Shown one piece after another: positions 2,667 through 63,458 of a stretch of DNA of 64,000 nt. The first letter of the stretch is position 1; each line of letters starts with the position of its first letter. This DNA comes from an uncultured Nitrospirota bacterium (GTDB lineage: Bacteria > Nitrospirota > Thermodesulfovibrionia > Thermodesulfovibrionales > JdFR-85). The DNA is taken from assembly GCA_964515925.1 (NCBI GenBank), contig CAZEYP010000001.1:22718-86717 (forward strand). The letters run 5' to 3'. The notes under the pieces are model-generated. The model was not told the origin of the DNA. It ran no database searches and worked only from the letters and a program-made list of their open reading frames with translations. Position numbers and translations under genes: made by a program.

Positions 2667-2800
2667 GACCCTTCGCTTTGCTCAGGGTGACTTCTGATTC
2701 TATTTTGAGGGTAAAAGCCGTCATCCTGAGGCCAAAGGCCGAAGGATCTAAAACAAAGGCAACGAAACTGAGGGGATGTTTCGCTGTCGCTCAACATGAC
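2667..2800. repeat. Three copies of a 25-29 nt word (consensus about GTCAYCCTGAGC..GCGAAGGATC) in alternating orientation, forming a hairpin
   Basis: 2667-2691 gacccttcgctttgctcagggtgac is close to the reverse complement of 2720-2748 gtcatcctgaggccaaaggccgaaggatc. A third copy lies at 2775-2800 and a fourth at 28437-28461. Confidence 0.8.
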
Positions 2801-2980
2801 AGATTTACGGTGAAAGGATGCATATAGAGTTGCAATGCCTTGATTGCCAAGGGATTGAGAATTATTTAACAGCCTTATTCAGGATTTAGGATTTATGAGA
2901 ATGATAAAAGACGGCCCAATAACTCAATAACAAAGCCTAATTCCTCTACCCCATTCAGTGTTTGACTTTTTAAGGACTCT

Positions 2981-16938: not shown

Positions 16939-17090
16939 CAGGGAGCAGGGCATAGGGGGCAGGGTGTAGTGAGTGTAGAGTTTTGAGTTTTGAGTGTTGA
17001 GTAAAAGCATAACTTAATAATTCAGCACTCAACAATATACATTAAAAACTTTTAATTCCCTGCCCACTACACGCTACACCCTACACCCTA
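16939..17090 (+). repeat. Composite imperfect inverted repeat: G/T-rich arm, short loop, C/A-rich arm
   Basis: The left arm is cagggagcagggcatagggggcagggtgtagtgagtgtagagttttgagttttgagtgttgagt. The right arm is actcaacaatatac...ccctgcccactacacgctacaccctacacccta. It starts 3 nt after the acsC stop. Confidence 0.85.
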
Positions 17091-17242
17091 TATTATTTGT
17101 AATTTAAATCGGTCAATTAAGTAAGTTGACTTTTATAAAGCATTTAGTTTAAAAATTAGGTATAGCCCTTAATCCCGTCTTTAAGAAAAAAAGGCGGGAT
17201 TTAATTATTTTAAAAAAGACAATAAACACAGAGGAGGTTCAG

Positions 17243-19551: not shown

Positions 19552-21543
19552 ATGGCTGAGAAGGTAATAAAAAGTGTAGATAAGGTGGCAGAGAATATTC
19601 TGGAGTGGGCTGAGGCTCACGGCCTTGAAACTGCCTTTGAGCGGTCTGAGAGAATAAAGCCCTGTCCCATTGGTCATAGTGGCGCCTGCTGTAAGATATG
19701 TTTCATGGGGCCATGCAGACTGGTAGGTCAGGATGCAGAGGAAAAGGCAACAGGTGTCTGTGGTGCCACACTTCCAGTGGTATCTGCAAGGAACCTTCTG
19801 AGGATGGTGGCGGCAGGAACGGCAGCTCACAGTGACCATGCCCGTGATATGGCTTATACACTGCTTGAGGCTGCCACCGGTGAGGCACCTGACTTTCAGA
19901 TAAGGGATGTTCAGAAACTCAAAAAGCTGGCCAACATCCTTGAGATACCAACTGAAGATAGAACAAAAGAGGAGATTGCAAAGGATGTAGCCGAGAAACT
20001 CATCTCCGAGTTTGGTCAGCAAAAGGGAGAGCTTTCCTTTATAAAGAGGGCACCAAAAAAACGCCAGGAGATATGGCGCAAGTGGGGAGTGGTGCCAAGA
20101 GGCATTGACCGTGAAGTTGTTGAGGCCATGCACCGGACTAATATGGGAGTGGACCAGGACCCTGACAACCTTCTTATGGCCGCACTTAAGGTCTCACTTG
20201 CTGACGGCTGGGGCGGAAGCATGATAAGCACTGACATCACCGATATACTCTTTGGCACACCAAAGCCCCGTCGGTCACAGGCAAGTATTGGCATAATGAA
20301 GGAGGATGAGGTAAATGTGGTGGTTCATGGTCATGAGCCAACACTGGCTGAGATGATTGTTGAGGTCTCCCAGGAGCCTGAGATTGTTGAGTATGCTAAG
20401 AAGAAGGGCGCAAAGGGCATAAACCTTGTGGGTATGTGTTGTACTGCCAACGAGGTGTTGATGCGTCATGGAATCCCCACGGCAGGTGGTTTCCTCAATC
20501 AGGAGCTTGCCATTATGACCGGTCTGGCTGAAGCCATAATGGTGGATGTCCAGTGCATTATGCCTGCAATTGCTCAGGCTGCAAAGAAGTTTCATACCAA
20601 GGTTGTTACCACCTCACATAAGGGTAAGATGATAGATGCGGTTCACATTCAGTATGATGAGCACAGGGCAAAGGAGATTGCCCGTCAGATACTGAGGCTT
20701 GCTATAGATAATTACGAAAACCGTAAGGCCGAAGGGGCTCATGTTCATGAGACATCACCTGTGATAGCTGGCTTCTCACACGAGTATATCGACTACATGC
20801 AGGGAGGCAGATTCAGGGCATCCTTCAGGCCGCTAAACGATGCAATAATGGCAGGACGTATTCGCGGTGTTGCTGGCATTGTTGGATGTAACAACCCGAG
20901 GATTGCCCCACAGGACAGCATACATGATTATCTTGCTATAGAGTTTATCAAAAACGATGTGCTTGTAGTGACCACAGGTTGTGGTGCTGCTGCATGTGCC
21001 AAGGCAGGATTTATGACGCCTGAGACTGCCCTTGAGATGGCAGGTCCGGGGCTCAGAGAGGTCTGTGAGGCGATTGGTATTCCGCCAATCCTGCACCTTG
21101 GTGCCTGTGTGGACAACTCAAGGATACTTACCGTTGCAACCCAGATGGCAGAGGAAGGTGGGCTTGGTGAGGATATTGCAGACCTGCCTGCAGTGGGAAT
21201 TGCACCTGAGTGGATGAGTGAGAAGGCACTGGCAATTGGCTGTTACTTTGTTGCCTCTGGCGTATATACCATATTTGGTTCAGAGCATCCTGCTGAGGCA
21301 TCCAAAGAGGTGCAGAGGATAATGAGCGAGGTCTGGGAAGAGCGGTTTGGTGGAAAGCTTGAGTTCATCCCTGACCCTGAGGAGATACTGAAGAAGTCCC
21401 TTGAGCACATTGATAAGAAAAGAGATGCACTTAAGCTCCGCAAATACGAGCCAGGCAGATTTCGCGTTGAAAGGAAACTGCTCAGCATGGCTGACAGGCG
21501 TAAACTTGAATCTGCAGCAAGACCCCATGAAGGAGTGGGATAA
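19552..21543 (+). CDS. cooS: Anaerobic carbon monoxide dehydrogenase catalytic subunit CooS/AcsA
   Basis: Starts at ATG 19552, 6 nt after GGAGG. The track's TTG at 19540 overlaps the SD. It has N-terminal cluster cysteines CPIGHSGACCKICFMGPCR and C-cluster region residues HGHEP and GMCCTANE. Confidence 0.92.
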   Translation: MAEKVIKSVDKVAENILEWAEAHGLETAFERSERIKPCPIGHSGACCKICFMGPCRLVGQDAEEKATGVCGATLPVVSARNLLRMVAAGTAAHSDHARDMAYTLLEAATGEAPDFQIRDVQKLKKLANILEIPTEDRTKEEIAKDVAEKLISEFGQQKGELSFIKRAPKKRQEIWRKWGVVPRGIDREVVEAMHRTNMGVDQDPDNLLMAALKVSLADGWGGSMISTDITDILFGTPKPRRSQASIGIMKEDEVNVVVHGHEPTLAEMIVEVSQEPEIVEYAKKKGAKGINLVGMCCTANEVLMRHGIPTAGGFLNQELAIMTGLAEAIMVDVQCIMPAIAQAAKKFHTKVVTTSHKGKMIDAVHIQYDEHRAKEIARQILRLAIDNYENRKAEGAHVHETSPVIAGFSHEYIDYMQGGRFRASFRPLNDAIMAGRIRGVAGIVGCNNPRIAPQDSIHDYLAIEFIKNDVLVVTTGCGAAACAKAGFMTPETALEMAGPGLREVCEAIGIPPILHLGACVDNSRILTVATQMAEEGGLGEDIADLPAVGIAPEWMSEKALAIGCYFVASGVYTIFGSEHPAEASKEVQRIMSEVWEERFGGKLEFIPDPEEILKKSLEHIDKKRDALKLRKYEPGRFRVERKLLSMADRRKLESAARPHEGVG

Positions 21544-21546
21544 TTT

Positions 21547-21581
21547 AAGATTTCAGATTTATGATTTGAGATTTTAGATTT
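21547..21581 (+). repeat. Tandem heptad array NAGATTT (5 units)
   Basis: aagattt cagattt atgattt gagattt tagattt runs straight into the SD GGAGG of the next gene. Confidence 0.85.
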
Positions 21582-21591
21582 GGAGGTTTGG

Positions 21592-22133: not shown

Positions 22134-24473
22134 ATGGCTAAGCTTAAGAGCATTGAGGAACTGAAAAACCTTAGACTTTTATTAAAAGAGGAGACCTTTC
22201 CAGAAGGTCGTGAGCGTATAAGGGCCTGCACAGGCACGGCCTGTATGGCTTCTGGTGCAAATAAGGTGATAGAAAGGATTGAGGAGAAGGCAAAGGAAAA
22301 AGGTCTTGACATACAGGTGATTCGTACTGGCTGTCAGGGGCTATGCCAGAAGGGGCCTATTATGAAGATAGAGCCCTATGGATACTTTTATCAGAAGGTA
22401 AAGGTAGATGATGCAGAGGCGGTAGTCAGTAATACCCTTTCTGCAGGCTATCCGGTCAGGCACCTCCTGAATCGCGACTCCTTTTTTGTAGAGCCCCATG
22501 AATTAATGGATGAGCTACCCTTTTATAAAAAACAGCTTCGTATAGCCCTTCGTAACAACGGAAGGATTGACCCACTTAACATATACCACTATATCGCTGT
22601 AGGTGGATACACAGGACTGGAGAAGGCATTAAGCAGCATGACCCCTGACCAGGTCCTTGATGAAGTAGACAGGGCAAACCTCCGTGGTCGGGGAGGTGCA
22701 GGATTCCCAGCAGGTAAGAAGTGGCGTCATACAAAAAGGGCTCCAGGGGATTTAAAGTTTGTAATTGCAAACGGTGACGAAGGTGACCCTGGTGCGTTCA
22801 TGGACCGCTCAATCATGGAGGGCGACCCTCACAGTCTTATAGAGGGAATGCTTCTTTGTGCCTACGCAATTGGTGCAGAGTATGGCTTTATATATGTTCG
22901 TCATGAGTATCCACTGGCTGTTAAGAATCTCAGGCATGCTATCAAACAGGCAGAGGACCTGGGAATTCTTGGTGAAAACATACTTGGTAGTGGATTTAAT
23001 TTTTATCTTGATGTCCGCGAGGGTGCAGGTGCCTTTGTATGCGGAGAGTCAACAGCTCTGGTTGCCTCAATTGAAGGAGACAGAGGCTTTCCAAGGCCAA
23101 GGCCACCACGGCTCAGTGAGCCTGGTGGTGGGCTGTGGGGTGTGCCTTCAAATCTGAATAACATTGAGACCTATGCCTGTGTGCCGCCAATTATTGAAAA
23201 AGGCGCAGACTGGTTCCGCTCTATAGGAACCGAGACATCCCCTGGCACCAAGGTCTTTGCACTCACTGGTAAGGTTAAAAACACAGGACTGGTAGAGGTG
23301 CCAATGGGTATTACGCTCAGGGAGATTATATTTGACATTGGCGGTGGGATCCTTGGGGATAAGAAGTTCAAGGCTGTCCAGACAGGCGGCCCATCAGGTG
23401 GCTGTCTGCCCGAGGAGTATCTTGACCTGCCTGTTGATTTTGACTCATTAAGGAAGGTTGGCTCCATGATGGGCTCTGGTGGTATGGTGGTGATGGACGA
23501 GGATACATGTATGGTGGATGTGGCAAAGTACTTTCTTTCATTTACACAGGCAGAATCCTGTGGTAAATGTCCACCCTGCCGTCTCGGCACATACCAGATG
23601 CTTCAGATTCTTGAGAGGATCACCAATGGTCAGGGCGAACCTGGCGACATTGAAAGGCTTATCAAGTATGGCAAGCTCACGCAGGAGGGCTCACTCTGCG
23701 GACTTGGTCAGAGTGCACCAAATCCTGTGCTGAGCACGATTAAGTATTTCAGAGAGGAGTACGAAGAGCATATCTATGATAAGTATTGCAGGGCAAAGGT
23801 ATGTAAGGGAATGGGTGTATTCTCCATAGACCTTACACAGTGCATCCGTTGTGGTCTATGCAAGGAGGCCTGTGCCTTTGATGCAGTTAAGGAGACACGG
23901 GATGCTTTCATAATAGACAGGGATTACTGCACAAAGTGTAAGGCCTGTTACATGGTCTGTCCTGTGGATGCCGTGAAGATATGGAAGGAAAGACATCTCA
24001 AGATGGTTGAGGCATTGAAGATTCCTCCTGAAAAGATAGAAACCATTGAAAGGAGAGTAAAGATGAAACTCAAAGATGTGCTTGAGGCAAAACCTCGGGA
24101 GGTCTTCACTGTAAGAAAGGACAAGAGCGTTTCCTATGCAGTGAAGTTCATGAGTGAGCATAACATTGGTGCACTGCTTGTGGTGGATGAAAAGGATAAA
24201 CTGGTTGGAATGTTTACTGAAAGGGATGTGCTTCATTGCACTGCCCGTGGTGTTGACCTTGACTCAGAGCCAGTTGAAAATGTGATGAGTAAGGAGCTTA
24301 TTACATTCTCTCCAGATGATGATATTGCTGTTGCTGTGCAGGTTATTGCAGATAAGAAGAAGAGACACCTGCCCATTGTTGAGGGTGACAGGATCGTTGG
24401 CCTGGTAAATTATCGTGATGTGGTCAGTTATCTGCTGCCAGAGGTATTCTATCTGTCAGAGGCACTTTATTGA
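22134..24473 (+). CDS. NuoF/HydB-like NAD(P)H-binding FMN/Fe-S subunit with an N-terminal [2Fe-2S] domain, C-terminal 2x[4Fe-4S] and a tandem CBS-domain pair
   Basis: 779 aa with GLRGRGGAGFP (FMN/NADH site), ESCGKCPPCRLGT (N3-type cluster), ferredoxin motifs CIRCGLCKEAC and CTKCKACYMVCP, and a final ~135 aa (about 24063-24470) that forms a CBS pair (..HNIGALLVVDEKDKLVGMFTERDV.. / ..RHLPIVEGDRIVGLVNYRDV..). Confidence 0.85.
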   Translation: MAKLKSIEELKNLRLLLKEETFPEGRERIRACTGTACMASGANKVIERIEEKAKEKGLDIQVIRTGCQGLCQKGPIMKIEPYGYFYQKVKVDDAEAVVSNTLSAGYPVRHLLNRDSFFVEPHELMDELPFYKKQLRIALRNNGRIDPLNIYHYIAVGGYTGLEKALSSMTPDQVLDEVDRANLRGRGGAGFPAGKKWRHTKRAPGDLKFVIANGDEGDPGAFMDRSIMEGDPHSLIEGMLLCAYAIGAEYGFIYVRHEYPLAVKNLRHAIKQAEDLGILGENILGSGFNFYLDVREGAGAFVCGESTALVASIEGDRGFPRPRPPRLSEPGGGLWGVPSNLNNIETYACVPPIIEKGADWFRSIGTETSPGTKVFALTGKVKNTGLVEVPMGITLREIIFDIGGGILGDKKFKAVQTGGPSGGCLPEEYLDLPVDFDSLRKVGSMMGSGGMVVMDEDTCMVDVAKYFLSFTQAESCGKCPPCRLGTYQMLQILERITNGQGEPGDIERLIKYGKLTQEGSLCGLGQSAPNPVLSTIKYFREEYEEHIYDKYCRAKVCKGMGVFSIDLTQCIRCGLCKEACAFDAVKETRDAFIIDRDYCTKCKACYMVCPVDAVKIWKERHLKMVEALKIPPEKIETIERRVKMKLKDVLEAKPREVFTVRKDKSVSYAVKFMSEHNIGALLVVDEKDKLVGMFTERDVLHCTARGVDLDSEPVENVMSKELITFSPDDDIAVAVQVIADKKKRHLPIVEGDRIVGLVNYRDVVSYLLPEVFYLSEALY

Positions 24474-24618
24474 TTTTAGATTTGAGATTTAAGATTTCAG
24501 ATTTAAAAGCTCTGTAAGCGCTGTGTTCTCTGTGGTTAAAATAGAAGAAGTGCATAAGTTTGGAAAATTGGGATTTGGAATTTGTTTAGAAATTAGGGTT
24601 TAGAAATTAGAATTTTTA
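24474..24618 (+). repeat. Composite spacer element: NAGATTT heptads, then NNCTCTGTG nonamers, then GGAATTT/AGAAATT words
   Basis: The sequence is tttagatttgagatttaagatttcagatttaaaagctctgtaagcgctgtgttctctgtggtt...ggaaaattgggatttggaatttgtttagaaattagggtttagaaattagaattttt. It is homologous to 59829-59967 and partly to 48466-48563. Confidence 0.85.
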
Positions 24619-27602: not shown

Positions 27603-27669
27603 GGAAGTCTGAAGTCGGAAATCAGAATATGTTATCTGACCTCCGACCTCTGACCTCTGTCCTCTGTCC
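27603..27669 (-). repeat. Inter-tRNA spacer hairpin built from heptads (CTGACCT array versus GAAGTC/GAAATC array)
   Basis: 27603-27626 pairs with 27635-27658. There are 18 Watson-Crick pairs on either strand, plus 4 further G:U pairs only in the minus-strand (tRNA-sense) RNA. Confidence 0.8.
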
Positions 27670-27745
27670 TGGTGAGCCGCCGGGGATTCGAACCCCGCAC
27701 ACCCGCCTTAAAAGGGCGGTGCTCTGCCGACTGAGCTAGCGGCCC
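27670..27745 (-). tRNA. tRNA-Lys (anticodon UUU), CCA encoded
   Basis: The reverse complement is GGGCCGCTAGCTCAGTCGGCAGAGCACCGCCCTTTTAAGGCGGGTGTGCGGGGTTCGAATCCCCGGCGGCTCACCA. The anticodon loop is CTTTTAA. Confidence 0.92.
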
Positions 27746-39781: not shown

Positions 39782-39811
39782 TTGATACCCTGCCTGAGTA
39801 AATGTTATGTT
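39782..39811 (+). promoter_or_regulatory. Candidate promoter of the formate dehydrogenase operon
   Basis: TTGATA lies at 39782-39787, with TATGTT 18 nt downstream, in an AT-rich spacer after mfd. If used, it excludes the ATG at 39802 as a start. Confidence 0.3.
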
Positions 39812-39849
39812 ATTTAACTTTATTTTTCTATGTCTTCAGGGAGGCAACT

Positions 39850-40308
39850 TTGGAAGGGCAGTTAGAGAGGATACTTGAGAATTATTATAGTTCTGAAGGA
39901 AACATAATCTCCATCCTTCAGGATGTTCAGGAGACCTTTGGATACCTGCCAGAGGAGGCAATCAACTGGTTCTCAAAAAGACTTGATATCCCACCTGCCA
40001 AGTTCTTTGGTGTGGCAACATTCTATGCCCAGTTTCACCTCAAGCCAAGGGGCAAAAACATCATTACCGCATGCTGTGGAACCGCCTGTCATGTGAAGGG
40101 TTCAGAACGGATTATAAATAGCATCAGGAAGGAACTGGAACTTGCCTCAGATGAAGACACAACAGCCGATGGTGAGTTTACAGTGGAAGAGGTTGCCTGT
40201 CTGGGGACATGCAGTTTTGCCCCTGTGGTGCTCATAAATGGTGAGGTTTACGGAAGGGTAAAGGTTGAAGACCTGGTAAAAAAGATCAAGGAGATCAGGA
40301 AGGGCTGA
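39850..40308 (+). CDS. NuoE-like [2Fe-2S] subunit of NAD(P)-linked formate dehydrogenase
   Basis: In-frame TTG at 39850, 5 nt after CAGGGAGG. The track start ATG 39802 lacks an SD and adds a non-conserved hydrophobic leader. Cys motifs are CCGTACHVKG and CLGTCSFAP. Confidence 0.8.
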   Translation: MEGQLERILENYYSSEGNIISILQDVQETFGYLPEEAINWFSKRLDIPPAKFFGVATFYAQFHLKPRGKNIITACCGTACHVKGSERIINSIRKELELASDEDTTADGEFTVEEVACLGTCSFAPVVLINGEVYGRVKVEDLVKKIKEIRKG

Positions 40309-42089
40309 TGAACAGAAGTAGTATAACAGTCAGGGTATGTATGGGGCCTGCAGGCATCGCTGCTGGTGGCAGGGATGTGCTGGAGAGGTTTGATGCAGTG
40401 ATTAAAGAAAAGGAGTTAGATGCTGAGCTCAGAGAGGGCTGCAGTGTCCACAAGGTCGGATGTCTGGGGCTTTGTGCAAGGGATGTGCTGGTTGAGATAG
40501 AGATAGATGGTGAAAAAACATTTTATCAGTTTATAAAGCCTGACATGGTGGAGCAGATCGTTCAGGAGCATCTCGTTAATGGGAGGCCTGTTAAAGAGTG
40601 GCTTGTGGATGAGGGCTACTGGAGGTTTTATGAGAAGCAGAAAAAGGTTGTTCTTTCCGATTGTGGCAGGATTGACCCTGAAGACATCGATGCTTATATT
40701 TCTGTTGGCGGCTATAACTCCCTCAGAGAAGTGCTTAAAAACAGAACCCCTGGGGATGTGATTGAAACAATAAAGAATTCCGGTCTCAGGGGCCGCGGTG
40801 GAGCTGGTTTTCCAACCGGCCTGAAGTGGGAGTTTGCCCATAAGGCAGCAGGAGATATCAAGTATCTGATCTGTAATGCCGATGAAGGGGACCCCGGTGC
40901 ATTTATGGACAGGGCAGTCATCGAGGGTAATCCACATGCACTCGTTGAGGGGATGCTTATAGCAGCTTATGCAATAGGTGCCACAAAGGGTTATGTCTAT
41001 ATCAGGGCAGAGTATCCCCTTGCAGTAGAAAGGCTCCGTCTTGCACTGAAGCAGGCACATGAAAAGGGCTTTCTGGGAAAGGACATACTGGGAAGTGGTT
41101 TTGATTTTGATATAAAGATAAAATTAGGGGCAGGTGCCTTTGTCTGTGGTGAGGAGACTGCCCTTATAGCATCCATTGAGGGTAAAAGGGGTATGCCGCG
41201 GCCAAAGCCGCCCTTCCCGGCCCAGAAGGGTCTCTGGGGCAAACCAACGGTTATAAACAATGTTGAGACCCTTGCCAATGTGCCCTATATTATTCGTAAT
41301 GGTGCAGAGTGGTTTGCCCGTTATGGCACTGAAAAAAGCAAGGGCACCAAGGTCTTTGCACTCACTGGAAAGATCAATAATACTGGACTGATAGAGGTTC
41401 CAATGGGTATAACGCTGCGGGAGATTATCTACGAGATAGGTGGTGGAGTGGCAGAAGGTAGAAAGCTCAAGGCTGTCCAGACAGGTGGTCCATCAGGTGG
41501 ATGTATCCCTGCCGAGCACATTGACATCCCTGTTGATTATGAGTCCCTTGCAAAGATGGGCTCCATTGTTGGCTCAGGCGGAATGATTGTACTTGATGAT
41601 TCAGATTGTATGGTGAATGTTGCAAAGTATTTTCTTGAGTTTACACAGAAGGAGTCCTGCGGAAAGTGTGTGCCCTGCCGCATTGGAACAAAGAGGCTTC
41701 TTGAGATTCTGACAAGGATCACCGATGGAAGGGGCCGACCTGGTGACATTGAACTACTCATCGAGCTCAGTGAGGATGTAAAGGCAGGCTCTCTATGTGG
41801 GCTTGGCCAAACCGCACCCAATCCTGTCTTAAGCACCATAAAGTATTTCCGTGAGGAATACGAGGCACATATTCATGATAAACGATGCCCTGCAGGGGTG
41901 TGTAAAAACCTGCTTACCTACACCATACTTGAGGAGTTCTGCAAGGGATGCACCATGTGTGCAAGGGTCTGCCCTGCAGGGGCAATTGTTGGCGAGAAGA
42001 AACAGCCTCACAGGATCGTTCAGGAGATATGCATCAAGTGCGGCGCCTGCTTTGAGACCTGTAAGTTCAAGGCGATAAAGAAGGGGTAG
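40308..42089 (+). CDS. NuoF-like NAD(P)H/FMN/Fe-S subunit of formate dehydrogenase
   Basis: 593 aa with GLRGRGGAGFPTG, ESCGKCVPCRIGT, and C-terminal ferredoxin motifs CKGCTMCARVCP and CIKCGACFETC. It is a paralogue of 22134..24473 without the CBS pair. Confidence 0.88.
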   Translation: MNRSSITVRVCMGPAGIAAGGRDVLERFDAVIKEKELDAELREGCSVHKVGCLGLCARDVLVEIEIDGEKTFYQFIKPDMVEQIVQEHLVNGRPVKEWLVDEGYWRFYEKQKKVVLSDCGRIDPEDIDAYISVGGYNSLREVLKNRTPGDVIETIKNSGLRGRGGAGFPTGLKWEFAHKAAGDIKYLICNADEGDPGAFMDRAVIEGNPHALVEGMLIAAYAIGATKGYVYIRAEYPLAVERLRLALKQAHEKGFLGKDILGSGFDFDIKIKLGAGAFVCGEETALIASIEGKRGMPRPKPPFPAQKGLWGKPTVINNVETLANVPYIIRNGAEWFARYGTEKSKGTKVFALTGKINNTGLIEVPMGITLREIIYEIGGGVAEGRKLKAVQTGGPSGGCIPAEHIDIPVDYESLAKMGSIVGSGGMIVLDDSDCMVNVAKYFLEFTQKESCGKCVPCRIGTKRLLEILTRITDGRGRPGDIELLIELSEDVKAGSLCGLGQTAPNPVLSTIKYFREEYEAHIHDKRCPAGVCKNLLTYTILEEFCKGCTMCARVCPAGAIVGEKKQPHRIVQEICIKCGACFETCKFKAIKKG

Positions 42090-42092
42090 GAA

Positions 42093-42240
42093 GGTGAATT
42101 GGTATATTGGTGTAGTGGTGTAGTGGTGAAGGGGTGAAACAGGCTTCAGGCTATAGGCTTAAGGTTATGGGCAATGGATTAAGATGCGAATATCAAAAAA
42201 GCCAGATTAATAATTTAGTAATCCAATAATCTAATAACTT
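42093..42240 (+). repeat. Octamer word arrays: G/T-rich arm GTGNANTG, spacer, C/A-rich arm
   Basis: ggtgaattggtatattggtgtagtggtgtagtggtgaaggggtgaaac ... attaataatttagtaatccaataatctaataactt lies between the NuoF-like gene and vapB. Confidence 0.75.
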
Positions 42241-42292
42241 AAAGAATATATTTTTATTGAATCAGGAATACTTTTAAGGCTAAAATAGAAGC

Positions 42293-42514
42293 ATGAAAAC
42301 CACAGTTGATATTCCAGATGATGAGCTCAAAGAATTACTGAAAAACACCAGAGCAAAGACCAAGAAAGAGGCAATTCTTCAGGCAGTAAGGGAGTACAAT
42401 CGCAGGCAGAAACTCAAAAGGCTTGCAGATATGCTGGGTACCTTTGAGGATATAATCACACTGGAAGAACTCCAGAAGTTCAGGATGGACCATAAATGGC
42501 CCGACAGGATGTAG
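42293..42514 (+). CDS. vapB: Type II antitoxin, VapB family
   Basis: 73 aa starting MKTTVDIPDDELKELLKNTRAKTKKEAILQAVREY.. It overlaps the PIN gene by 19 nt. Confidence 0.8.
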   Translation: MKTTVDIPDDELKELLKNTRAKTKKEAILQAVREYNRRQKLKRLADMLGTFEDIITLEELQKFRMDHKWPDRM

Positions 42515-42885
42515 TGCTTGTAGATACTTCCGTATGGATTGAGGCATTGAGGGTAAAAGGTGATGCTGAGACAAAAGAAAGACTCAGGCAGTTGATATTG
42601 GAGGACAGGGCTGTTTGGTGTGACCTGGTGGTGCTTGAACTACTCAGCGGAATGAAGGGTGAGAAGGAGAAAAAGAAGATTAGGGAATACATAGAAGAGA
42701 TAAGGAGTCTTGAGATTAACAGCAAGGTCTGGCAAAGGGCTAAAGGGTTAGTTGTTTCCTGCAGGCAAAAGGGATTTACGGTGCCTGTAACAGACATTAT
42801 AATAGCAGCCTGTGGCCTGAGCCACGGGGTGCCCTTAATGTATAAAGACCGACACTTCGACATCATACTGAGGGAGGTTCTATGA
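42496..42885 (+). CDS. vapC: Type II toxin VapC (PIN-domain ribonuclease)
   Basis: 129 aa with PIN acidic residues in VLVDTSVWIE, ..LVVLELL.., VTDIIIAA and KDRHFD. Its stop TGA (42883-42885) overlaps the fdhA ATG (42882-42884). Confidence 0.85.
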   Translation: MARQDVVLVDTSVWIEALRVKGDAETKERLRQLILEDRAVWCDLVVLELLSGMKGEKEKKKIREYIEEIRSLEINSKVWQRAKGLVVSCRQKGFTVPVTDIIIAACGLSHGVPLMYKDRHFDIILREVL

Positions 42886-45560
42886 TTACACTTATGATAG
42901 ATGGTAAGTATGTTGAGGTTCCTGAGGGGACGACCATACTTCAGGCTGCCCGTGAGGCTGACATCTACATCCCCACCCTCTGCGACGACCCACGACTGGA
43001 GCCCTACGGTGCATGCAGGCTCTGCCTTGTTCAGGTAAAGGGTATGCCAAGGCCTGTTACTGCCTGCACCACACCTGTAAGTGAGGGGATGGAGGTTCAG
43101 ACCAGCAATGAACAGATAGAGCGTATACGTAGAACCATAGTGGAGCTACTTCTAAGCGACCATCCCAATGATTGCATGGTCTGTGAAAAGGCAGGTGACT
43201 GCACCCTTCAGGAGCTTGCCTATTTTTACGACCTCAGAAAGAACCGATTCTGGGGTGAACGCCGTCAGTACACAAAGCGGGATGCCAATCCCTTTATTGA
43301 GAGGGATATGGAAAAGTGTGTGCTCTGTGGTAAGTGTGTGCGGGTCTGTGAGGAGATTCAGGGTGTGGCTGCCATAGACATAGCCTACAGGGGATTCAAG
43401 GCAAAGGTATGCCCTCCCTTTGAAAAGGACCTTAACTGTGAGTTCTGCGGTCAGTGCGTAAGCGTCTGCCCCACAGGTGCACTTATCGGCAAGCAGTCCC
43501 TTGGAAAAGGAAGGCAGAAGGACATAAAGCGAGTTGATACCGTATGTCCCTATTGTGGTTGTGGCTGTAACATAACCCTTCATGTAAGCCGCAATGAGAT
43601 AATCAGGGTGACCTCTGATCCAGACAGCCATAACGAGGGCTGGCTCTGCGTAAAGGGCAGGTTTGGCTTCAGGTTCGTAAACAGCCCTGACCGCCTGAAA
43701 AAACCCCTTATCAGGCGTAACGGTGAGTTTGAGGAGGTCTCCTGGGATGTGGCCCTTGAGTATATAGCAGAGAGGCTTAAAAAGATAAAGAAAGAACATG
43801 GTGCAGATGCCATCGCCGGGCTCAGCTCTGCCCGTTGCACCAATGAAGAAAACTACCTCTTCCAGAAGTTTATGCGTGCCGCAATTGGCACCAACAATGT
43901 TGACCACTGTGCCCGTTACTGACACTCTGCAACGGTGGCCGGTCTGGCCACAGTGTTCGGCTCAGGAGCCATGACCAACTCCATTGCAGAGATTGAGGAC
44001 AACGACCTTCTGTTTGTCATTGGCTCTAACACAAAGGAAAACCATCCCATAGTGGCACTTAGGATGATAAAGGCAGTGCGCAGGGGGGCTAAACTCATCG
44101 TGGCTGACCCAAGGAAGGTTCCCCTTGTCAGGTTTGCCCATCTGTGGCTTCAGCACCGCCCTGGCACGGATGTGGCACTTCTTAACAGCATGATGCATGT
44201 GATTGTAAAAGAGGACCTTATAGACAGGGACTTCATAATAAACATGACCGAGGGCTTTGAAAAGGAGTTCCTTGAAAACCTCGAGCAGTATACCCCTGAG
44301 GTTGGTGAGAAGCTAACTGGTGTTCCAAAGGAAAAGATAGTGGAGGCTGCAAGGCTTTATGGCTCTGCCGAGAGGGCTGGCATTTACTACACCATGGGCA
44401 TTACCCAGCACAGCCACGGCTCTGACAATGTCTTCAGCATTGCAAACCTGGCACTTATGACAGGCAATTTAGGGAAACCCTCCTCAGGTGTTAACCCTCT
44501 CAGGGGGCAGAACAATGTGCAGGGCTCAACCGATATGGGCTGCTCACCAGACAGTTATCCAGGCTACCAGAAGGTCCATCTGCCTGCTGTAAAAGAGAAG
44601 TTTGAAAGGCTCTGGGGTGTAAAGCTCTCTGACAGGCCAGGACTTACTGCCTCGGAGATGCTCTTTGAGGCTGAGGCAGGAAAATTAAGGGCCCTTTACA
44701 TAATGGGTGAAAACCCGGTGCTCAGTGACCCTGATGTGGGGCATACGGTGAGGGCATTAAAATCCCTTGACTTCCTGGTGGTTCAGGACATATTCATGAC
44801 CGAGACAGCAGAGCTTGCCGATGTGGTGCTTCCAGCTGCAAGCTTTGCTGAAAAGGACGGCACCTTTACAAACACAGAGCGAAGGGTTCAGCGGGTAAGA
44901 AAGGCACTAAACCCACCAGGGGATGCCAGAGAGGACTCCTGGATTATCACCGAGTTAAGCAAACGAATGGGCTATGAGATGAACTATGCAAATATATCTG
45001 AGGTGTTCAGGGAGATAGGACAGGCCTGGCCAGCAGTTGCAGGGATAACCTACTCAAGGCTTGAGCACGGAGGGCTCCAGTGGCCCTGTCCAACGGTGGA
45101 CCACCCTGGAACTCCATATCTTTTTAAGGGTGGTTTCCCGAGAGGAAAGGGTAGATTTACCATAGTGAAATACCGCGACCCCATGGAGATGGTAAGTGAT
45201 GAATTCCCCTTTATCCTGACAACAGGCCGTCAGCTGTTTCAGTACCATACAGGCACCATGACAAGAAGGGTTCCACCTATAAACGAGGTTTCCCCTGGAC
45301 CCTATGTGGAGATAAATCCTGATGACGCCCTAACGCTTGGCATTGAGGATGAGCAGAAGGTAAGGGTTACATCAAAACGGGGTAGCATAGAGCTTAATGC
45401 AAGGCTTACTGACAGGGTGGAAAGGGGTCTTGTGTTTATCCCCTTTCACTTTAAAGAGGCAGCAGCCAATGTGCTTACAGACAGCAGGGCACTTGACCCA
45501 CTCTGTAAGATTCCTGAGTTTAAAGTCTGTGCTGTGAATGTGGAGAAGATAGTTAATTGA
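42882..45560 (+). CDS. fdhA: Selenocysteine-containing formate dehydrogenase alpha subunit with a NuoG-like N-terminal Fe-S extension
   Basis: ORFs 42882..43922 and 43935..45560 are one frame joined across TGA 43920-43922. The context ..[30 protein letters not shown] is the conserved FdhA/FdhF Sec/Cys active-site motif. It has N-terminal [2Fe-2S] and 4x[4Fe-4S] motifs plus MopB and MopB_CT domains. Confidence 0.92.
43923..43955 (+). promoter_or_regulatory. SECIS element of fdhA
   Basis: cact ctgcaacg gtggcc ggtct ggccac agtg has a 6-bp upper stem with apical loop GGUCU (like the E. coli fdhF loop) plus a 4-bp lower stem. It starts immediately 3' of the UGA. Confidence 0.75.
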
Positions 45561-45690: not shown

Positions 45691-46149
45691 ATGGTTCAGA
45701 TCAATGATTTAAAAGAGCAGATATTATTGAAAGAACTAAACGACGATGAACTGAACATAATTGCTGAGAAGGTTCAGGAGCAAAGCTTTCCAATGGGGAA
45801 GTTAATCTTTATGGAGGGCGAAGAGACCAAGGGTATTTATCTTATAAAAAAGGGTAAGGTAGAGATATCAAAGACCACCCCTGATGGCTGGAAGCAAACA
45901 CTGGCTGTGTTTACTGATGGACATTTCTTTGGTGAGCTTTCGGTTATAGAAGACAAGAAAGAGCACGGTGCAATTGCCACAGCTATTGAGGATACCGATG
46001 CCTTTTTAATTAAAAAGGATGACCTGAAAAGTCTTGAAAAAAGCAACCCTGAGCTGATGTATAAGATTATGAAGACCATTGCCCGTGTGGCAAGCCACAA
46101 TGTGCATACGATGAATGAAAAACTGGTGAAGTTGTTGATTAGTTATTAG
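45691..46149 (+). CDS. Cyclic-nucleotide-binding domain protein (no DNA-binding domain)
   Basis: 152 aa with a CAP_ED beta-roll (GEETKGIYLIKKGKVEI, FFGELSVI). Confidence 0.75.
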   Translation: MVQINDLKEQILLKELNDDELNIIAEKVQEQSFPMGKLIFMEGEETKGIYLIKKGKVEISKTTPDGWKQTLAVFTDGHFFGELSVIEDKKEHGAIATAIEDTDAFLIKKDDLKSLEKSNPELMYKIMKTIARVASHNVHTMNEKLVKLLISY

Positions 46150-46180
46150 TGTAATGGTGTATTGGTGTAGTGGTATAGTG
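46149..46180 (+). repeat. Left (G/T-rich octamer) arm of the stem enclosing the four-helix-bundle ORF
   Basis: gtgtaatggtgtattggtgtagtggtatagtg pairs with 46598-46629 (27 WC plus 2 G:U of 32, hand-aligned). Confidence 0.8.
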
Positions 46181-46219
46181 GTAAATTGATGATAGGATGT
46201 TTTAGATAAATAATATATA

Positions 46220-46591
46220 ATGGGATTGGATGAGCTTGAGATATATGTTCTGGCAAGGCAGTTGAGCAGAGTTTTCTGGAAAGTATATGAAGGAATGGAC
46301 AATAGCATTAAATACAACATCGGGACACAGGCCCTTAGGTCTATTGATTCAATAGGAGCAAACATTGCTGAAGGATACGGTAGATATCATTATCTTGACT
46401 GTGTAAGGTTTTACTATAATGCCAGAGGATCTCTATGGGAAAGTTTACACTGGATAGAACTCCTATACGAAAGGGGTCTTTTAGAAGAACAGGTTTACAC
46501 ACAACTTACAGATGACCTTAACATACTCGTAAAAAAACTTAACAGCTTTATAAATTCAATAAAAAACAAAAAGGAAAACCTTAATAATTAA
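46220..46591 (+). CDS. Four-helix-bundle protein (23S rRNA intervening-sequence protein family, PF05635/TIGR02436 type)
   Basis: 123 aa. ..LRSIDSIGANIAEGYGRYHYLDCVRFYYNARGSLWESLHWIELL.. matches the family signature (SIxxNIAEGxGR ... ARGSxxE). Confidence 0.85.
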   Translation: MGLDELEIYVLARQLSRVFWKVYEGMDNSIKYNIGTQALRSIDSIGANIAEGYGRYHYLDCVRFYYNARGSLWESLHWIELLYERGLLEEQVYTQLTDDLNILVKKLNSFINSIKNKKENLNN

Positions 46592-46678
46592 AAAATACAA
46601 TACACTATTACACCAATACACCAATACACAAATATACCAATATACCAATATATTATTTTACTAATACACCAACATTAA
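46575..46678 (+). repeat. Right (C/A-rich octamer AYACCAAT) arm; a 104-nt stretch with no G
   Basis: ..caatacactattacaccaatacaccaatacacaaatataccaatataccaatatattattttactaatacaccaacattaa runs up to the AGGAGG of fhs. There is no G from 46575 to 46678 (hand count). Confidence 0.85.
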
Positions 46679-48465: not shown

Positions 48466-48563
48466 GGGAGCGGGGATTTCGGATTTATGATTTTAGATTT
48501 TAGATTTCAGATTTAGATACTCTGTGTTCTCTGTGGTTTGTATCTTCAATGTCCCTGCTCCCC
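48466..48563 (+). repeat. Composite spacer element (NAGATTT heptads plus CTCTGTG nonamers) bracketed by gggagcgggga / tccctgctccc
   Basis: The sequence is gggagcggggatttcggatttatgattttagattttagatttcagatttagatactctgtgttctctgtggtttgtatcttcaatgtccctgctcccc. The outer 11 nt are complementary apart from one G:T. Confidence 0.8.
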
Positions 48564-50793: not shown

Positions 50794-51020
50794 AAATCCG
50801 AAATACGAAATCCTAATTTCTAAACATTACAGGGTGTAGGGTGTAGCGTGTAGGGAGTAACAAAAACACCCCAACCAAACCCCAATCAACGCTACCAACG
50901 CTATTAACGCAAAGAACGCAATTAACTCTATAAGCGCAAGCAACGCAAATAACTCAAAGAACGCAAAGAACCCGATAAACTCGATAAACGCAAAGAACGC
51001 AACTTAACGCAATCAACGCT
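50794..51020 (-). repeat. Large composite repeat inside the mla operon (sense = minus): about 14 nonamers NNNNGCGTT, conserved core, CNCCCTA heptads, NNGATTT heptads
   Basis: Reverse-complement reading gives gattgcgtt aagttgcgtt ctttgcgtt tatcgagtt ... aatagcgtt ggtagcgtt gattggggtttggttggggtgtttttgttactccctacacgctacaccctacaccctg ... agaaatt aggattt cgtattt cggattt. The core 50830-50910 matches 57440-57520 at 75 of 81 positions, in inverted orientation. Confidence 0.9.
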
Positions 51021-57194: not shown

Positions 57195-57361
57195 AGGATG
57201 ATGGTTTTCTGTAAGGGAGTGGAAAACTGGTTTTACTGTCTGAGGTGCCCCTATCTTTGTAGTAGCCAGTGTCCGATTGAGAGTAATGACCCTTTGCGTC
57301 TTTTGTCGCTTTACATAAAAGATGAGGCAACAACGGGGGAGGACAAGGGAAAGTTATTGCG

Positions 57362-57558
57362 TTGATTGCGTTAATAGCGTTTATTGCGTTCTTTGCGTTA
57401 ATCGGGATGATTGCGTTTATTGGGTTAATAGTGTTAATTGCGTTAATAGCGTTGGTAGCGTTGATTAGGGTTTGGATGGGGTGTTTTTGTTGCTCCCTAC
57501 TCCCTACTCCCTACACCCTGTCTTTTTTACTCCCTACACGCTACCCCCTACACCCTAA
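57362..57558 (+). repeat. Large composite repeat in the nrdJ leader: about 12 nonamers NNNNGCGTT, conserved core, CTCCCTA/CACCCTA heptads
   Basis: The sequence is gattgcgtt aatagcgtt tattgcgtt ctttgcgtt ... aatagcgtt ggtagcgtt gattagggtttggatggggtgtttttgttgctccctactccctactccctacaccctg ... ctccctacacgctaccccctacacccta. It ends 13 nt before the GGAGG of nrdJ. Confidence 0.9.
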
Positions 57559-62622: not shown

Positions 62623-63354
62623 ATGCAGGAGAGACTACAAAAGATACTGGCAAGGGCAGGCATTGCCTCAAGGCGTAAGGCTGAGGAGCTTATCAGGGAA
62701 GGCCGTGTTACTGTAAACGGTCAGATTGCGACCCTCGGAATGAAGGCAGACCTTGAAACTGACTATATAAAGGTTGACGGCAAGCTTGTTCTGAAACCCG
62801 AACCCAAGACCTATATAATGCTTAACAAACCAAAGGGAGTTTTAACTACCCTTGAAGACCCTGAAGGCCGTCCAGCCATAAAGGAGCTTATAAAGGGTGT
62901 AAGGTTCAGGGTATATCCGGTTGGAAGACTGGATTTCTACACCGAGGGACTGCTGTTGTTGACAAATGATGGTGAGCTTGCCTATAGAATTATTCATCCT
63001 TCCTTTAAGGTTGACAAGACATATCTTGTTAAGGTCAAGGGCATTATTGAAGAAAAGGACCTTGAAAAGCTACGCAGGGGGATAAGGCTTGAAGATGGCA
63101 TAACTGCTCCGGCAAGGATAAAGAGAATAAGGATGCCAAAAACTGAAAAAAACTCCTGGCTTGAGGTGGTGATTCATGAAGGCAAAAAGCGACAGATCCG
63201 CAGGATGTTTCAACGGGTAGGGCATCCAGTGTTAAAGCTGAAACGGACAAAAATTGACGGCTTGAGCCTTGGGGATTTACCTGCGGGCAAGTGGCGTTAT
63301 CTTACCAACGAGGAGATAAAAAGGCTTAAGAAAAGTGTTAAAATAGACAATTAA
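62623..63354 (+). CDS. Pseudouridine synthase, RsuA/RluB family (S4 domain plus catalytic domain)
   Basis: 243 aa with the N-terminal S4 RLQKILARAGIASRRKAEELIREGRVTVNG and the catalytic motif PVGRLDFYTEGLLLLTNDGEL. Confidence 0.88.
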   Translation: MQERLQKILARAGIASRRKAEELIREGRVTVNGQIATLGMKADLETDYIKVDGKLVLKPEPKTYIMLNKPKGVLTTLEDPEGRPAIKELIKGVRFRVYPVGRLDFYTEGLLLLTNDGELAYRIIHPSFKVDKTYLVKVKGIIEEKDLEKLRRGIRLEDGITAPARIKRIRMPKTEKNSWLEVVIHEGKKRQIRRMFQRVGHPVLKLKRTKIDGLSLGDLPAGKWRYLTNEEIKRLKKSVKIDN

Positions 63355-63406
63355 TTTTAGATTTTAGATTTCAGATTTATGATTTCAGATTTTAGATTTA
63401 TGATTT
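63355..63406 (+). repeat. Tandem heptad array NAGATTT (about 7 units)
   Basis: tttagatttt agattt cagattt atgattt cagattt tagattt atgattt starts immediately after the stop codon. Confidence 0.9.
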
Positions 63407-63458
63407 AAGAGTAAGTGCTAAAATTGTTAATAAAGTTTAAGGTAGGAGGTTAGAGCTA

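What the first reader, a model, noticed from the sequence alone, without database searches (positions are those of the whole stretch)
42090..42885. vapBC toxin-antitoxin pair inserted inside the formate dehydrogenase operon, with its stop overlapping the fdhA start
**Seen in the sequence.**
- The NuoE-like and NuoF-like genes and fdhA all lie on the same strand.
- Between the NuoF-like stop (42089) and fdhA there is a word-repeat element (42093-42240). After it come vapB (42293-42514) and vapC (42496-42885).
- The vapC stop overlaps the fdhA start in an ATGA junction at 42882-42885. No separate SD-containing spacer precedes fdhA.

**Established knowledge.** VapC PIN toxins are site-specific RNases, often targeting initiator tRNA or rRNA. 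TA loci usually sit in accessory DNA, not inside core catabolic operons.

**Inference.** Translation of the catalytic FDH subunit may be coupled to translation of the toxin gene. The TA promoter and autoregulation may also now contribute to fdhA expression. This links a growth-arrest module to the entry step of CO2 fixation. The adjacency to a repeat element suggests how it was acquired.
Basis: partly seen in the sequence, partly recalled or inferred. Interest (0 to 1): 0.55.

Follow-up and report, generated by a model that had tools for sequence, protein, structure and literature searches.

The report
Old vapBC toxin-antitoxin inside formate dehydrogenase operon
A normal-looking VapBC toxin-antitoxin pair really does sit between two subunit genes of a formate dehydrogenase operon, but it is an old insertion kept under purifying selection in at least six related uncultured Nitrospirota lineages, and the dehydrogenase gene still has its own ribosome-binding site.

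Summary
vapB (42293-42514) and vapC (42496-42885) lie between the nuoF-like gene (stop at 42089) and fdhA (start at 42882), and the vapC stop and fdhA start share ATGA.

VapC passes the curated VapC model. It keeps all four catalytic acidic residues and models as a PIN fold closest to M. tuberculosis VapC11.

- **Age:** 80 related species genomes keep nuoE-nuoF-fdhA-fhs with a median 4-nt nuoF-fdhA gap and no vapBC. Every close VapB or VapC homologue found (six lineages; VapC 55-99% identical) sits at this same junction with the same ATGA. vapB and vapC are under strong purifying selection (dN/dS 0.03-0.23). Their synonymous divergence is close to that of the flanking genes, so the insertion is old.
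- **Loss:** One relative without vapBC (L006) keeps a 12-nt piece of the vapC tail as its spacer, which indicates deletion.
- **fdhA translation:** A GGGAGG Shine-Dalgarno (42872-42877), homologous to that of vapBC-free relatives, lies inside the vapC tail. Coupling to vapC is therefore possible but not required.
- **vapB promoter:** A promoter-like TTGAAT-18-TAAAAT with GAATAT repeats is conserved upstream of vapB.
- **Word repeat:** It is lineage-specific and not linked to the acquisition.

The physiological link to CO2 fixation remains speculation.

The parts
39802..40308 (+). nuoE-like [2Fe-2S] subunit gene (FDH gamma / HoxE-like), first gene of the operon
   Evidence: PF01257, 157.9 bits. 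NCBIfam matches to HoxE, NuoE and FDH-gamma are all below their curated cut-offs. It is syntenic upstream of nuoF in the related loci whose contigs reach that far.
40308..42089 (+). nuoF-like FMN/Fe-S subunit gene (FDH beta-like); stop TAG at 42087-42089
   Evidence: PF01512, PF10589 and Fer4 matches. TIGR01959 scores 536.9 bits. Its terminal codons AAGAAGGGN lie 2-5 nt before the fdhA ATG in the many relatives with such short gaps, where they could serve as its SD.
42093..42240 (.). Lineage-specific arrays of 7-8-nt words (GGTGTAGT-type, AGGCTTA-type, TAATCCAA-type); not part of the TA module
   Evidence: Tandem Repeats Finder rows. The predicted RNA fold is no better than shuffles on either strand (z = +0.79 and -0.07). 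The 23-mer TATTGGTGTAGTGGTRTAGTGGT occurs exactly at 42105-42127 and in the left arm of the IVP cassette at 46160-46182, with 0 expected by chance. Other vapBC lineages carry different arrays, and L173 has essentially none.
42244..42292 (+). Conserved vapB upstream region: GAATAT (42244-42249), -35-like TTGAAT (42257-42262), GGAATAC (42265-42271), -10-like TAAAAT (42281-42286), then 6 nt to the vapB ATG (possible leaderless start). Candidate autoregulated promoter and operator.
   Evidence: The promoter scan reports 42257-42286, TTGAAT-18-TAAAAT. TAAAAT and the GAATA(T) cores are invariant, and the -35 is TTGAAT or TTGATT, in six lineages whose synonymous sites are near saturation. Function is inferred, not shown.
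42293..42514 (+). vapB antitoxin gene (73 aa)
   Evidence: PF09957, 27.1 bits against a cut-off of 23.4. It overlaps vapC by 19 nt in all lineages. dN/dS is 0.03-0.09.
42496..42885 (+). vapC PIN-domain toxin gene (129 aa); its last codons (K/R-E-V-L-stop) are written over the fdhA SD and start codon
   Evidence: NF047959, 97 bits against a cut-off of 80. D10, E48, D100 and D118 are invariant. The AlphaFold model has pLDDT 89.9 and its best PDB match is VapC11 (6a7v), TM 0.83. phmmer against 6a7v gives E = 3.5e-14. dN/dS is 0.07-0.23.
42872..42877 (+). Shine-Dalgarno GGGAGG of fdhA, embedded in the vapC 3' end
   Evidence: Read directly from the sequence. It is conserved with the same 4-nt spacing in all six vapBC lineages and in vapBC-free relatives L006, L007, L008 and L075.
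42882..45560 (+). fdhA, catalytic formate dehydrogenase alpha subunit with an N-terminal NuoG-like Fe-S domain; in-frame TGA (selenocysteine) at 43920-43922
   Evidence: TIGR01591 scores 677 bits for the C-terminal part. Fer2_4, NADH-G_4Fe-4S_3, Molybdop_Fe4S4, Molybdopterin and Molydop_binding domains are present. The TGA lies in CARY-U-HSAT and is conserved in 83 of 89 locus entries.

Best explanation
This is a canonical, probably active type II VapBC toxin-antitoxin module. It was inserted once, long ago, into the few bases between the nuoF stop codon and the fdhA Shine-Dalgarno of a NuoEF-type, selenocysteine-containing formate dehydrogenase operon. The host was an ancestor of a small clade of uncultured Thermodesulfovibrionia (Nitrospirota).

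Since then it has mostly been inherited together with its flanking genes, and it has occasionally been deleted.

**How it most likely works (inferred)**
- vapBC is transcribed both by read-through from the operon promoter and from its own conserved promoter (TTGAAT-18-TAAAAT). GAATAT repeats around that promoter would let VapB or VapBC repress it.
- No terminator separates vapC from fdhA, so transcripts from the TA promoter continue into fdhA.
- fdhA is translated from its own ancestral SD, which now lies inside the last vapC codons. Ribosomes terminating at the UGA of AUGA may add some re-initiation.
- The module persists for three reasons: it is functional (purifying selection), loss of a labile antitoxin is penalised (the addiction principle), and its 3' end is physically entangled with the fdhA ribosome-binding site. 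Only deletions that spare the vapC tail are tolerated.

No specific physiological link to formate or CO2 metabolism is required.
For: **Shown**
- *Family membership:* HMM scores are above the curated cut-offs. All four PIN acidic residues are invariant in six lineages. The model is a PIN fold closest to VapC11, FitB and VapC15.
- *Insertion:* 80 related species genomes keep nuoE-nuoF-fdhA-(cNMP)-fhs without vapBC, with a median nuoF-fdhA gap of 4 nt. The outgroups L008, L075, L010 and L013 have stop-GGAGG-4 nt-ATG.
- *Age and conservation:* Every VapC homologue of at least 55% identity and every VapB homologue of at least 70% identity sits at this same junction with the same 4-nt overlap. These are L085, L170-172, L086, L087/88, L089 and L173. 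The next nearest relatives are in unrelated contexts or are no more than 42% identical.
- *Selection:* dN/dS is 0.03-0.09 for vapB and 0.07-0.23 for vapC. For the window against L085, dS is 0.67 (vapB) and 0.95 (vapC), against 1.14 (fdhA) and 1.12 (nuoF).
- *Losses:* L005 and L006 lack vapBC but nest within the vapBC-bearing clade on the NuoF and FdhA trees. Beyond the shared SD, the L006 spacer contains 12 nt identical to vapC codons 122-126 of L173, its sister on the NuoF tree (0 of 300 shuffles scored as well). That stretch aligns to VapC11 residues, so it is native vapC sequence.
- *fdhA SD:* it is conserved with and without vapBC.
- *Promoter and operator motifs:* they are conserved in six lineages.
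- *Terminators:* no terminator-like site lies between nuoF and fdhA.
Against: - There are no expression, toxicity or binding data. The promoter, the leaderless start and the autoregulation are read from conservation and consensus matches only.
- Inheritance is not purely vertical. Between L086 and L087, vapC dS is 0.29 but the first 97 codons of fdhA give 1.43. This suggests that recombination moved vapBC or fdhA between related lineages.
- The trees are neighbour-joining trees of single genes without bootstrap, and several loci are short metagenome contigs.
- Similarity of the L005 and L007 spacers to the vapC tail is not significant. L007 may therefore predate the insertion.
- Strong purifying selection over this depth is more than a purely selfish element needs, which leaves room for a host function.
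Confidence: 0.6

Rival explanations
1. Domesticated regulator. The VapBC module has been co-opted by the host. Its autoregulated internal promoter sets fdhA (and downstream fhs) expression independently of nuoEF. VapC activity ties the formate/CO2 step of the Wood-Ljungdahl methyl branch to translation arrest when energy or substrate fails.
For: - The module has been retained at one locus through divergence at which synonymous sites are near saturation, with dN/dS as low as in the neighbouring enzyme genes.
- The promoter and operator motifs are invariant.
- The VapC subfamily is found only in this context.
- There is a precedent for a TA promoter feeding a downstream housekeeping operon: S. 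aureus mazEF and the sigB operon (PMC3920265).
Against: - At least two lineages within the clade (L005, L006) lost vapBC and kept an intact nuoF-fdhA-fhs operon.
- The other 78 related species run the same operon without vapBC.
- fdhA keeps its own SD.
- Nothing in the sequence links VapC to formate metabolism. The Sec codon in fdhA is equally present in relatives without vapBC.
Confidence: 0.2
2. Recent, genome-specific acquisition mediated by the adjacent repeat element, with fdhA translation now dependent on vapC translation.
For: - The ATGA overlap and the absence of any spacer are real.
- A repeat array lies directly upstream.
- Junctions in other genomes have been invaded by repeat-flanked cassettes. 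L066 carries an IVP gene between inverted word arrays.
Against: - The same arrangement is found in six lineages, with VapC identity down to 55% and dS of about 1 or higher.
- The array differs between lineages or is absent, and vapBC has no inverted partner arm.
- The ancestral SD is retained.
Confidence: 0.05
3. Spread by homologous recombination. vapBC with its flanks moves between related Thermodesulfovibrionia by recombination in nuoF and fdhA. On this view the patchy distribution reflects repeated gains rather than one gain followed by losses.
For: - Between L086 and L087, vapC dS (0.29) and vapB dS (0.30 for L086-L089) are far below the dS of the adjacent fdhA 5' region (1.43).
- The window's NuoF is 82-88% identical overall to its nearest relatives, but its last 182 residues are 96-97% identical. 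This hints at mosaicism next to the insert.
Against: - For the window against L085, dS of vapBC is similar to that of both flanks.
- L006 carries a vapC-tail remnant, which is a deletion signature and not an empty site.
- All insert junctions are identical, which a single origin also predicts.
Confidence: 0.15

Closest known systems
VapBC type II toxin-antitoxin systems, closest solved example M. tuberculosis VapBC11 (PDB 6a7v)
   Same: - A 129-aa PIN toxin with the four acidic residues.
- A small upstream antitoxin gene (PF09957) that overlaps the toxin gene.
- Repeats around a sigma-70-like promoter.
- Sequence match E = 3.5e-14 and structural match TM 0.83.
   Different: - It is not in accessory DNA and not patchily scattered. 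It is fixed at one site between two subunit genes of an enzyme, across several species-level lineages.
- The toxin's last three codons and its stop are the ribosome-binding site and start codon of the downstream gene.
- Target RNA and toxicity are untested.
Staphylococcus aureus mazEF transcriptionally linked to the downstream sigB operon (reviewed in PMC3920265); similarly E. coli relA-mazEF-mazG
   Same: A chromosomal TA pair sits directly upstream of housekeeping genes and is co-transcribed with them, so the TA promoter contributes to downstream expression.
   Different: - There the TA precedes a regulatory operon and is separated from it by a weak terminator.
- Here the TA sits inside a metabolic enzyme operon, between the beta-like and alpha subunit genes, with an overlapping stop and start and no predicted terminator.
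- Co-transcription is not demonstrated here.
Sinorhizobium meliloti ntrPR (VapBC-type), which by my own recollection sits next to nitrogen-regulation genes; the papers found mention it, but I did not read them for its position or function
   Same: A VapBC-type module sits beside core metabolic or regulatory genes and is proposed to modulate metabolism.
   Different: ntrPR, as I recall it, is upstream of the neighbouring operon and not between enzyme subunit genes. No overlap with a catalytic subunit's start codon is known to me.
Repeat-flanked 'four helix bundle' / 23S rRNA-IVS protein cassettes (TIGR02436, PF05635), and short tandem heptamer arrays of the cyanobacterial STRR type (the STRR comparison is from my own knowledge)
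   Same: The array upstream of vapB uses the same 8-nt words as the left arm of the IVP cassette at 46144-46191. Similar arrays and an IVP cassette occupy the nuoF-fdhA junction in other genomes.
   Different: vapBC is not bracketed by inverted arms. Other vapBC lineages carry different arrays or none. The array is therefore a later, independent occupant of the spacer.

Membership tests
VapBC type II toxin-antitoxin | Toxin is a PIN-domain protein of about 130 aa that matches the family model above its curated threshold | tested here: met
   PF01850 scores 48.5 bits (cut-off 23.6). NF047959 scores 97 bits (cut-off 80).
VapBC type II toxin-antitoxin | Four conserved acidic active-site residues of the PIN domain | tested here: met
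   D10, E48, D100 and D118 are invariant in the window and in five other lineages.
VapBC type II toxin-antitoxin | PIN (Rossmann-like alpha/beta/alpha) fold | tested here: met
   The AlphaFold model has pLDDT 89.9. The top Foldseek matches are VapC11, FitB, VapC15 and VapC21, with TM 0.73-0.85.
VapBC type II toxin-antitoxin | Small antitoxin gene immediately upstream, co-oriented, usually overlapping the toxin gene, with an N-terminal DNA-binding domain | tested here: met
   vapB is 73 aa. PF09957 matches residues 1-42 at 27.1 bits (cut-off 23.4). The 19-nt overlap with vapC is conserved in all lineages.
VapBC type II toxin-antitoxin | Toxin is a growth-arresting RNase that is neutralised by direct binding of the antitoxin | not testable with these tools
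   This needs expression and cleavage assays. Only indirect support is available, from purifying selection on both genes.
VapBC type II toxin-antitoxin | Autoregulated promoter with operator repeats bound by the antitoxin or the complex | tested here: inconclusive
   TTGAAT-18-TAAAAT and two GAATAT repeats 21 nt apart in the window (22 nt in L086) are conserved in six lineages. Binding was not tested.
NuoEF-type (FdsGBA-like) soluble formate dehydrogenase operon | Co-oriented genes for a NuoE-like 2Fe-2S subunit, a NuoF-like FMN/Fe-S subunit, and an Fdh-alpha with a NuoG-like N-terminus and a Mo/W-bisPGD domain | tested here: met
   Synteny holds in the related loci whose contigs reach that far. 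A Sec codon lies at 43920-43922.
Word-repeat-flanked mobile cassette (as for the IVP gene at 46220-46591) | Cargo bracketed by inverted arms made of complementary word arrays | tested here: not met
   The IVP gene has arms at 46144-46191 and 46598-46672. The search of 42060-42900 finds no partner arm for the 42093-42138 array. The array is not conserved among vapBC lineages.
TA promoter feeding a downstream operon (S. aureus mazEF-sigB type) | Transcripts that start at the TA promoter extend into the downstream genes | not testable with these tools
   Overlapping genes and the absence of a predicted terminator are compatible with this. Transcript mapping is required.

The most novel reading that the evidence does not exclude
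The VapBC pair has been co-opted as a built-in controller of the formate dehydrogenase / formyl-THF branch. Its VapB-repressed internal promoter and the vapC-fdhA overlap set the stoichiometry of the catalytic subunit. Release of VapC cleaves a specific tRNA or rRNA, so that growth stops when the CO2/formate entry step of the Wood-Ljungdahl pathway fails. This would explain why a normally mobile module has been kept at one operon junction under strong purifying selection across species.
Probability: 0.12. Interest if true: 0.7.

Novelty: new member of a known kind. Interest (0 to 1): 0.4.

Why it matters
Chromosomal toxin-antitoxin pairs are usually scattered, quickly gained and lost, and their function is disputed. 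This locus is a clean natural case of a different behaviour.

A TA pair was fixed between two subunit genes of a core C1-metabolism enzyme. It was kept intact through roughly species- to genus-level divergence, and its 3' end doubles as the ribosome-binding site of the catalytic subunit. At least one relative carries a deletion scar.

The locus therefore offers a concrete system for asking two questions:
- Do such modules persist through addiction and physical entanglement, or because the host uses them?
- Does a TA promoter feed a metabolic operon?

It is not a new kind of system, and no effect on CO2 fixation is shown.

Tried and rejected
- **Metagenome scan with a VapC alignment:** It added no further members and only showed that the subfamily is isolated.
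- **RNA structure for the word-repeat region:** the minimum free energy is no better than shuffles on either strand, and there is no Rfam match in the region. The idea of a hairpin or an RNA element was dropped.
- **Inverted partner arm for the array, which would make vapBC a repeat-bracketed cassette like the IVP gene:** none was found.
- **Deletion scars in L005 and L007:** local alignment of their spacers to vapBC inserts was not significant (17-21 of 300 and 40-60 of 300 shuffles scored as well). Only the L006 scar is claimed.
- **Independent fdhA promoter inside vapC:** there are two consensus matches (42775-42803 and 42857-42886). They lie in conserved coding sequence and the first is not kept in L086, so they are not claimed.
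- **Link between VapC and selenocysteine decoding:** the Sec codon is present in 83 of 89 locus entries regardless of vapBC. The idea was rejected.
- **Literature searches:** searches for vapBC in formate dehydrogenase operons, for STRR-type repeats and for vertically inherited TA loci returned nothing on target.
Full report
**1. The observation**

ORF listing and direct reading confirm every coordinate.
- nuoE-like is 39802-40308 and nuoF-like is 40308-42089.
- vapB is 42293-42514 and vapC is 42496-42885.
- fdhA starts at 42882, so the vapC TGA and the fdhA ATG share ATGA at 42882-42885. All genes are on the + strand.

Profile searches support the names.
- vapB matches PF09957 above its gathering score.
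- vapC matches PF01850 and the NCBIfam equivalog 'type II TA system VapC family toxin' at 97 bits against a cut-off of 80.
- The flanking genes are a NuoE-like 2Fe-2S protein, a NuoF-like FMN/Fe-S protein, and an Fdh-alpha with a NuoG-like N-terminus.
- fdhA has an in-frame TGA at 43920-43922 in the motif CARY-U-HSAT, so it encodes a selenocysteine enzyme.

The 'word-repeat element' is real. Tandem Repeats Finder finds three arrays between 42093 and 42237.

The one correction concerns the SD. There is no spacer, but a strong GGGAGG (42872-42877) lies 4 nt before the fdhA ATG, inside the last vapC codons.

**2. Is VapBC intact?**

- D10, E48, D100 and D118 are present and invariant among all homologues.
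- The AlphaFold model (pLDDT 89.9) is a PIN fold. Its best PDB matches are M. tuberculosis VapC11, FitB, VapC15 and VapC21. VapC11 is also the best sequence match, at E = 3.5e-14.
- Both genes are under strong purifying selection: dN/dS is 0.03-0.09 for vapB and 0.07-0.23 for vapC.

**3. Comparative synteny: it is an insertion**

A scan of one genome per species with the FdhA N-terminal part returned 80 loci. Nearly all are Nitrospirota or Thermodesulfovibrionales MAGs, at 63-97% identity.
- Wherever the contig reaches far enough, the order nuoE-nuoF-fdhA is kept. A cNMP-binding protein gene and fhs usually follow.
- None of the 80 contains vapB or vapC.
- The nuoF-fdhA gap could be measured in 78 of them. 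Its median is 4 nt and it is 2-45 nt in most.
- In the outgroups nearest to the window's clade (L008, L075, L010, L013) the nuoF stop is followed directly by GGAGG, 4 nt and the ATG.
- Where the gap is only 2-5 nt, the terminal nuoF codons (AAGAAGGGN) lie where an SD would be.

A tight junction between fdhA and the upstream gene is therefore the ancestral state. The window's 792-nt gap is an insertion.

**4. The insertion is old and conserved**

The same arrangement, at 100% identity, occurs in four independent metagenome contigs. More importantly, all close homologues lie at this same junction.
- Every VapC homologue found with at least 67% identity (P0002-P0004) lies between nuoF and fdhA, with vapC ending 3 nt after the fdhA start.
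- So does every VapB homologue with at least 70% identity (P0009-P0013).
- The loci are L085, L170/171/172, L086, L087/88, L089 and L173. L173's VapC is only 55% identical and its upstream neighbourhood is different.
- The next VapB relative (59%, Acidobacteriota) is in an unrelated context.
- A metagenome scan found no other VapC above 42% identity.

For the window against L085, synonymous divergence of vapB (0.67) and vapC (0.95) is close to that of fdhA (1.14) and nuoF (1.12). vapBC was therefore already present when these lineages split.

On neighbour-joining trees of NuoF and FdhA, all vapBC-bearing lineages fall in one clade.
- That clade also contains the vapBC-free L005 (fdhA dS to the window only 0.21) and L006. 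L007 is its sister.
- The simplest history is one gain and at least two losses.

A deletion scar supports loss.
- The 21-nt spacer of L006 is ttatatcttcaaggaggtatt.
- Together with the following ATGA, it is identical over 25 nt to the vapC tail of L173, its sister on the NuoF tree.
- Twelve of those nucleotides lie upstream of the shared SD and correspond to vapC codons 122-126 (0 of 300 shuffles scored as well).
- Those codons align to VapC11 residues, so they are native PIN sequence.
- Analogous similarity in L005 and L007 is not significant.

One pair is discordant. Between L086 and L087, vapC dS is 0.29 while the first 97 fdhA codons give 1.43. Some recombinational exchange within the clade is therefore likely.

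**5. Anatomy of the junctions**

*Right border*
- In all six lineages the sequence is A(A/G)GGAGGT-N3-ATGAT.
- The part GGAGGT-N3-ATGA is the ancestral fdhA ribosome-binding site and start (compare L008 TGGAGGTATTATGA).
- The vapC frame simply runs through it, which gives the conserved C-terminus (K/R)-E-V-L and a stop at the TGA of ATGA.
- The insertion point was therefore the 0-3 nt between the nuoF stop and the fdhA SD.
- fdhA did not lose its SD. Termination-reinitiation coupling to vapC is possible but not required.

*Left border: the roughly 50 nt before vapB are conserved in six lineages*
- GAATAT at 42244-42249.
- TTGAAT at 42257-42262.
- GGAATA(C/T) at 42265-42271.
- TAAAAT at 42281-42286.
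- Then 6 nt to the ATG, with no SD.

The promoter scan flags exactly this pair of hexamers. Their invariance where synonymous sites are near saturation argues for a functional promoter with operator-like repeats, possibly producing a leaderless vapB mRNA. This is inference only. No terminator-like site lies between nuoF and the end of fdhA, so transcripts from this promoter should include fdhA.

**6. The word repeat**

- Its RNA fold is no better than shuffles.
- Its 8-nt words are those of the left arm of a repeat-bracketed 'four helix bundle / 23S rRNA IVS protein' cassette 4 kb downstream. An exact 23-mer occurs at 42105-42127 and 46160-46182, with 0 expected by chance.
- vapBC has no inverted partner arm.
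- L085, L170 and L086 carry different (TGAGTGN) arrays at this position, and L173 has almost none.
- Similar arrays are scattered through intergenic DNA across the window.
- Similar arrays also fill the nuoF-fdhA gap in several vapBC-free genomes. That gap has been independently invaded by an IVP cassette (L066) and by an Lcl_C-domain ORF (L031).

The array is therefore a fast-evolving, independent occupant of a permissive spacer. It is not a trace of how vapBC arrived.

**7. Interpretation**

The best-supported reading is an ordinary, functional VapBC module that became entrenched inside a formate dehydrogenase operon.
- It is transcribed from its own conserved promoter and probably also by operon read-through.
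- fdhA lies downstream on the same transcripts and is translated from its retained SD.
- Persistence can be explained by the addiction property of TA pairs, together with the fact that the vapC tail carries the fdhA ribosome-binding site. Only deletions that spare the tail survive, as in L006.
- A host function, such as regulation of FdhA supply or a link between C1 metabolism and growth arrest, cannot be excluded. It is hinted at by the depth of conservation. However, two lineages lost the module and about 80 related species do without it.
- Known precedents for TA pairs co-transcribed with housekeeping genes exist, for example S. aureus mazEF and the sigB operon (PMC3920265). A literature search found nothing on vapBC within formate dehydrogenase operons.

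**8. Verdict**

The insertion and the possible promoter contribution stand. Recency, repeat-mediated acquisition and obligatory coupling do not.
- It is a new member of a known kind in an unusual, conserved context, and of moderate interest.

Noticed in passing
window 43920-43922 (within fdhA): There is an in-frame TGA in the motif CARY-U-HSAT, so FdhA is a selenocysteine enzyme. The same codon is TGA in 83 of 89 locus entries and Cys (TGC or TGT) in five (L012, L038, L050, L055, L077). Gene callers split the gene in two at this point.
   Followed up: partly
window 46144-46672: A 'four helix bundle' / 23S rRNA-IVS protein gene (46220-46591; TIGR02436 90 bits, PF05635) lies between the cNMP-binding gene and fhs. 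It is bracketed by inverted arms made of 8-nt word arrays (46144-46191 and 46598-46672, 75-84% complementary). A 65%-identical IVP gene sits at the same place in L008 and L075 but is absent from most relatives.
   Followed up: partly
L066:5579-6001: In this vapBC-free relative the nuoF-fdhA junction holds a different small cassette. It is an IVP gene (PF05635, 124.7 bits) flanked by complementary word arrays (GGCGTAAGG... and ...CCTCACGCCTCACGCC). The same junction in L031 (Ca. Magnetominusculus) holds a 165-aa Lcl_C-domain ORF. L009, L019, L024, L033, L062, L064, L068, L074 and L081 hold only word arrays or hairpin-like repeats there.
   Followed up: partly
window, whole (e.g. 223-269, 16952-17091, 21543-21582, 24472-24612, 27635-27670, 48475-48518, 63354-63410): Dozens of short tandem arrays with periods of 7-9 nt are scattered across the window; the ones I checked against ORFs lie between genes. 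They often occur as complementary pairs. They resemble cyanobacterial STRR heptamer arrays (comparison from my own knowledge). Several metagenome contigs of this organism end at or near such arrays, which suggests they break assemblies.
   Followed up: no
window 50821-50993 and 57357-57529: A 173-nt inverted repeat (83% complementary), itself built from word arrays (AGGGTGT and AACGCAA types), brackets 6.36 kb. The enclosed segment carries about six genes, including MlaE and an ABC ATPase and a B12-binding radical SAM gene. It could be an invertible or mobile segment.
   Followed up: no
L022, L044, L054, L084 (about 1-3500 in each locus): These relatives carry a second, more divergent NuoF/FdhA-like gene set immediately upstream of the main nuoE-nuoF-fdhA operon. 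This looks like a tandem paralogous FDH operon.
   Followed up: no
window 40308-42089 (nuoF): The window's NuoF is 82-88% identical overall to its nearest relatives (L085, L170, L005), but its last 182 residues are 96-97% identical. FdhA is 95-97% identical. The 5' two-thirds of nuoF may have been replaced by recombination.
   Followed up: no
L174:4001-5088 (Acidobacteriota metagenome contig): The nearest VapB relative outside the FDH clade (59% identity) belongs to a vapBC pair whose toxin gene overlaps a downstream cytidine/deoxycytidylate deaminase-family gene by 8 nt. This is another TA pair abutting a metabolic gene.
   Followed up: no
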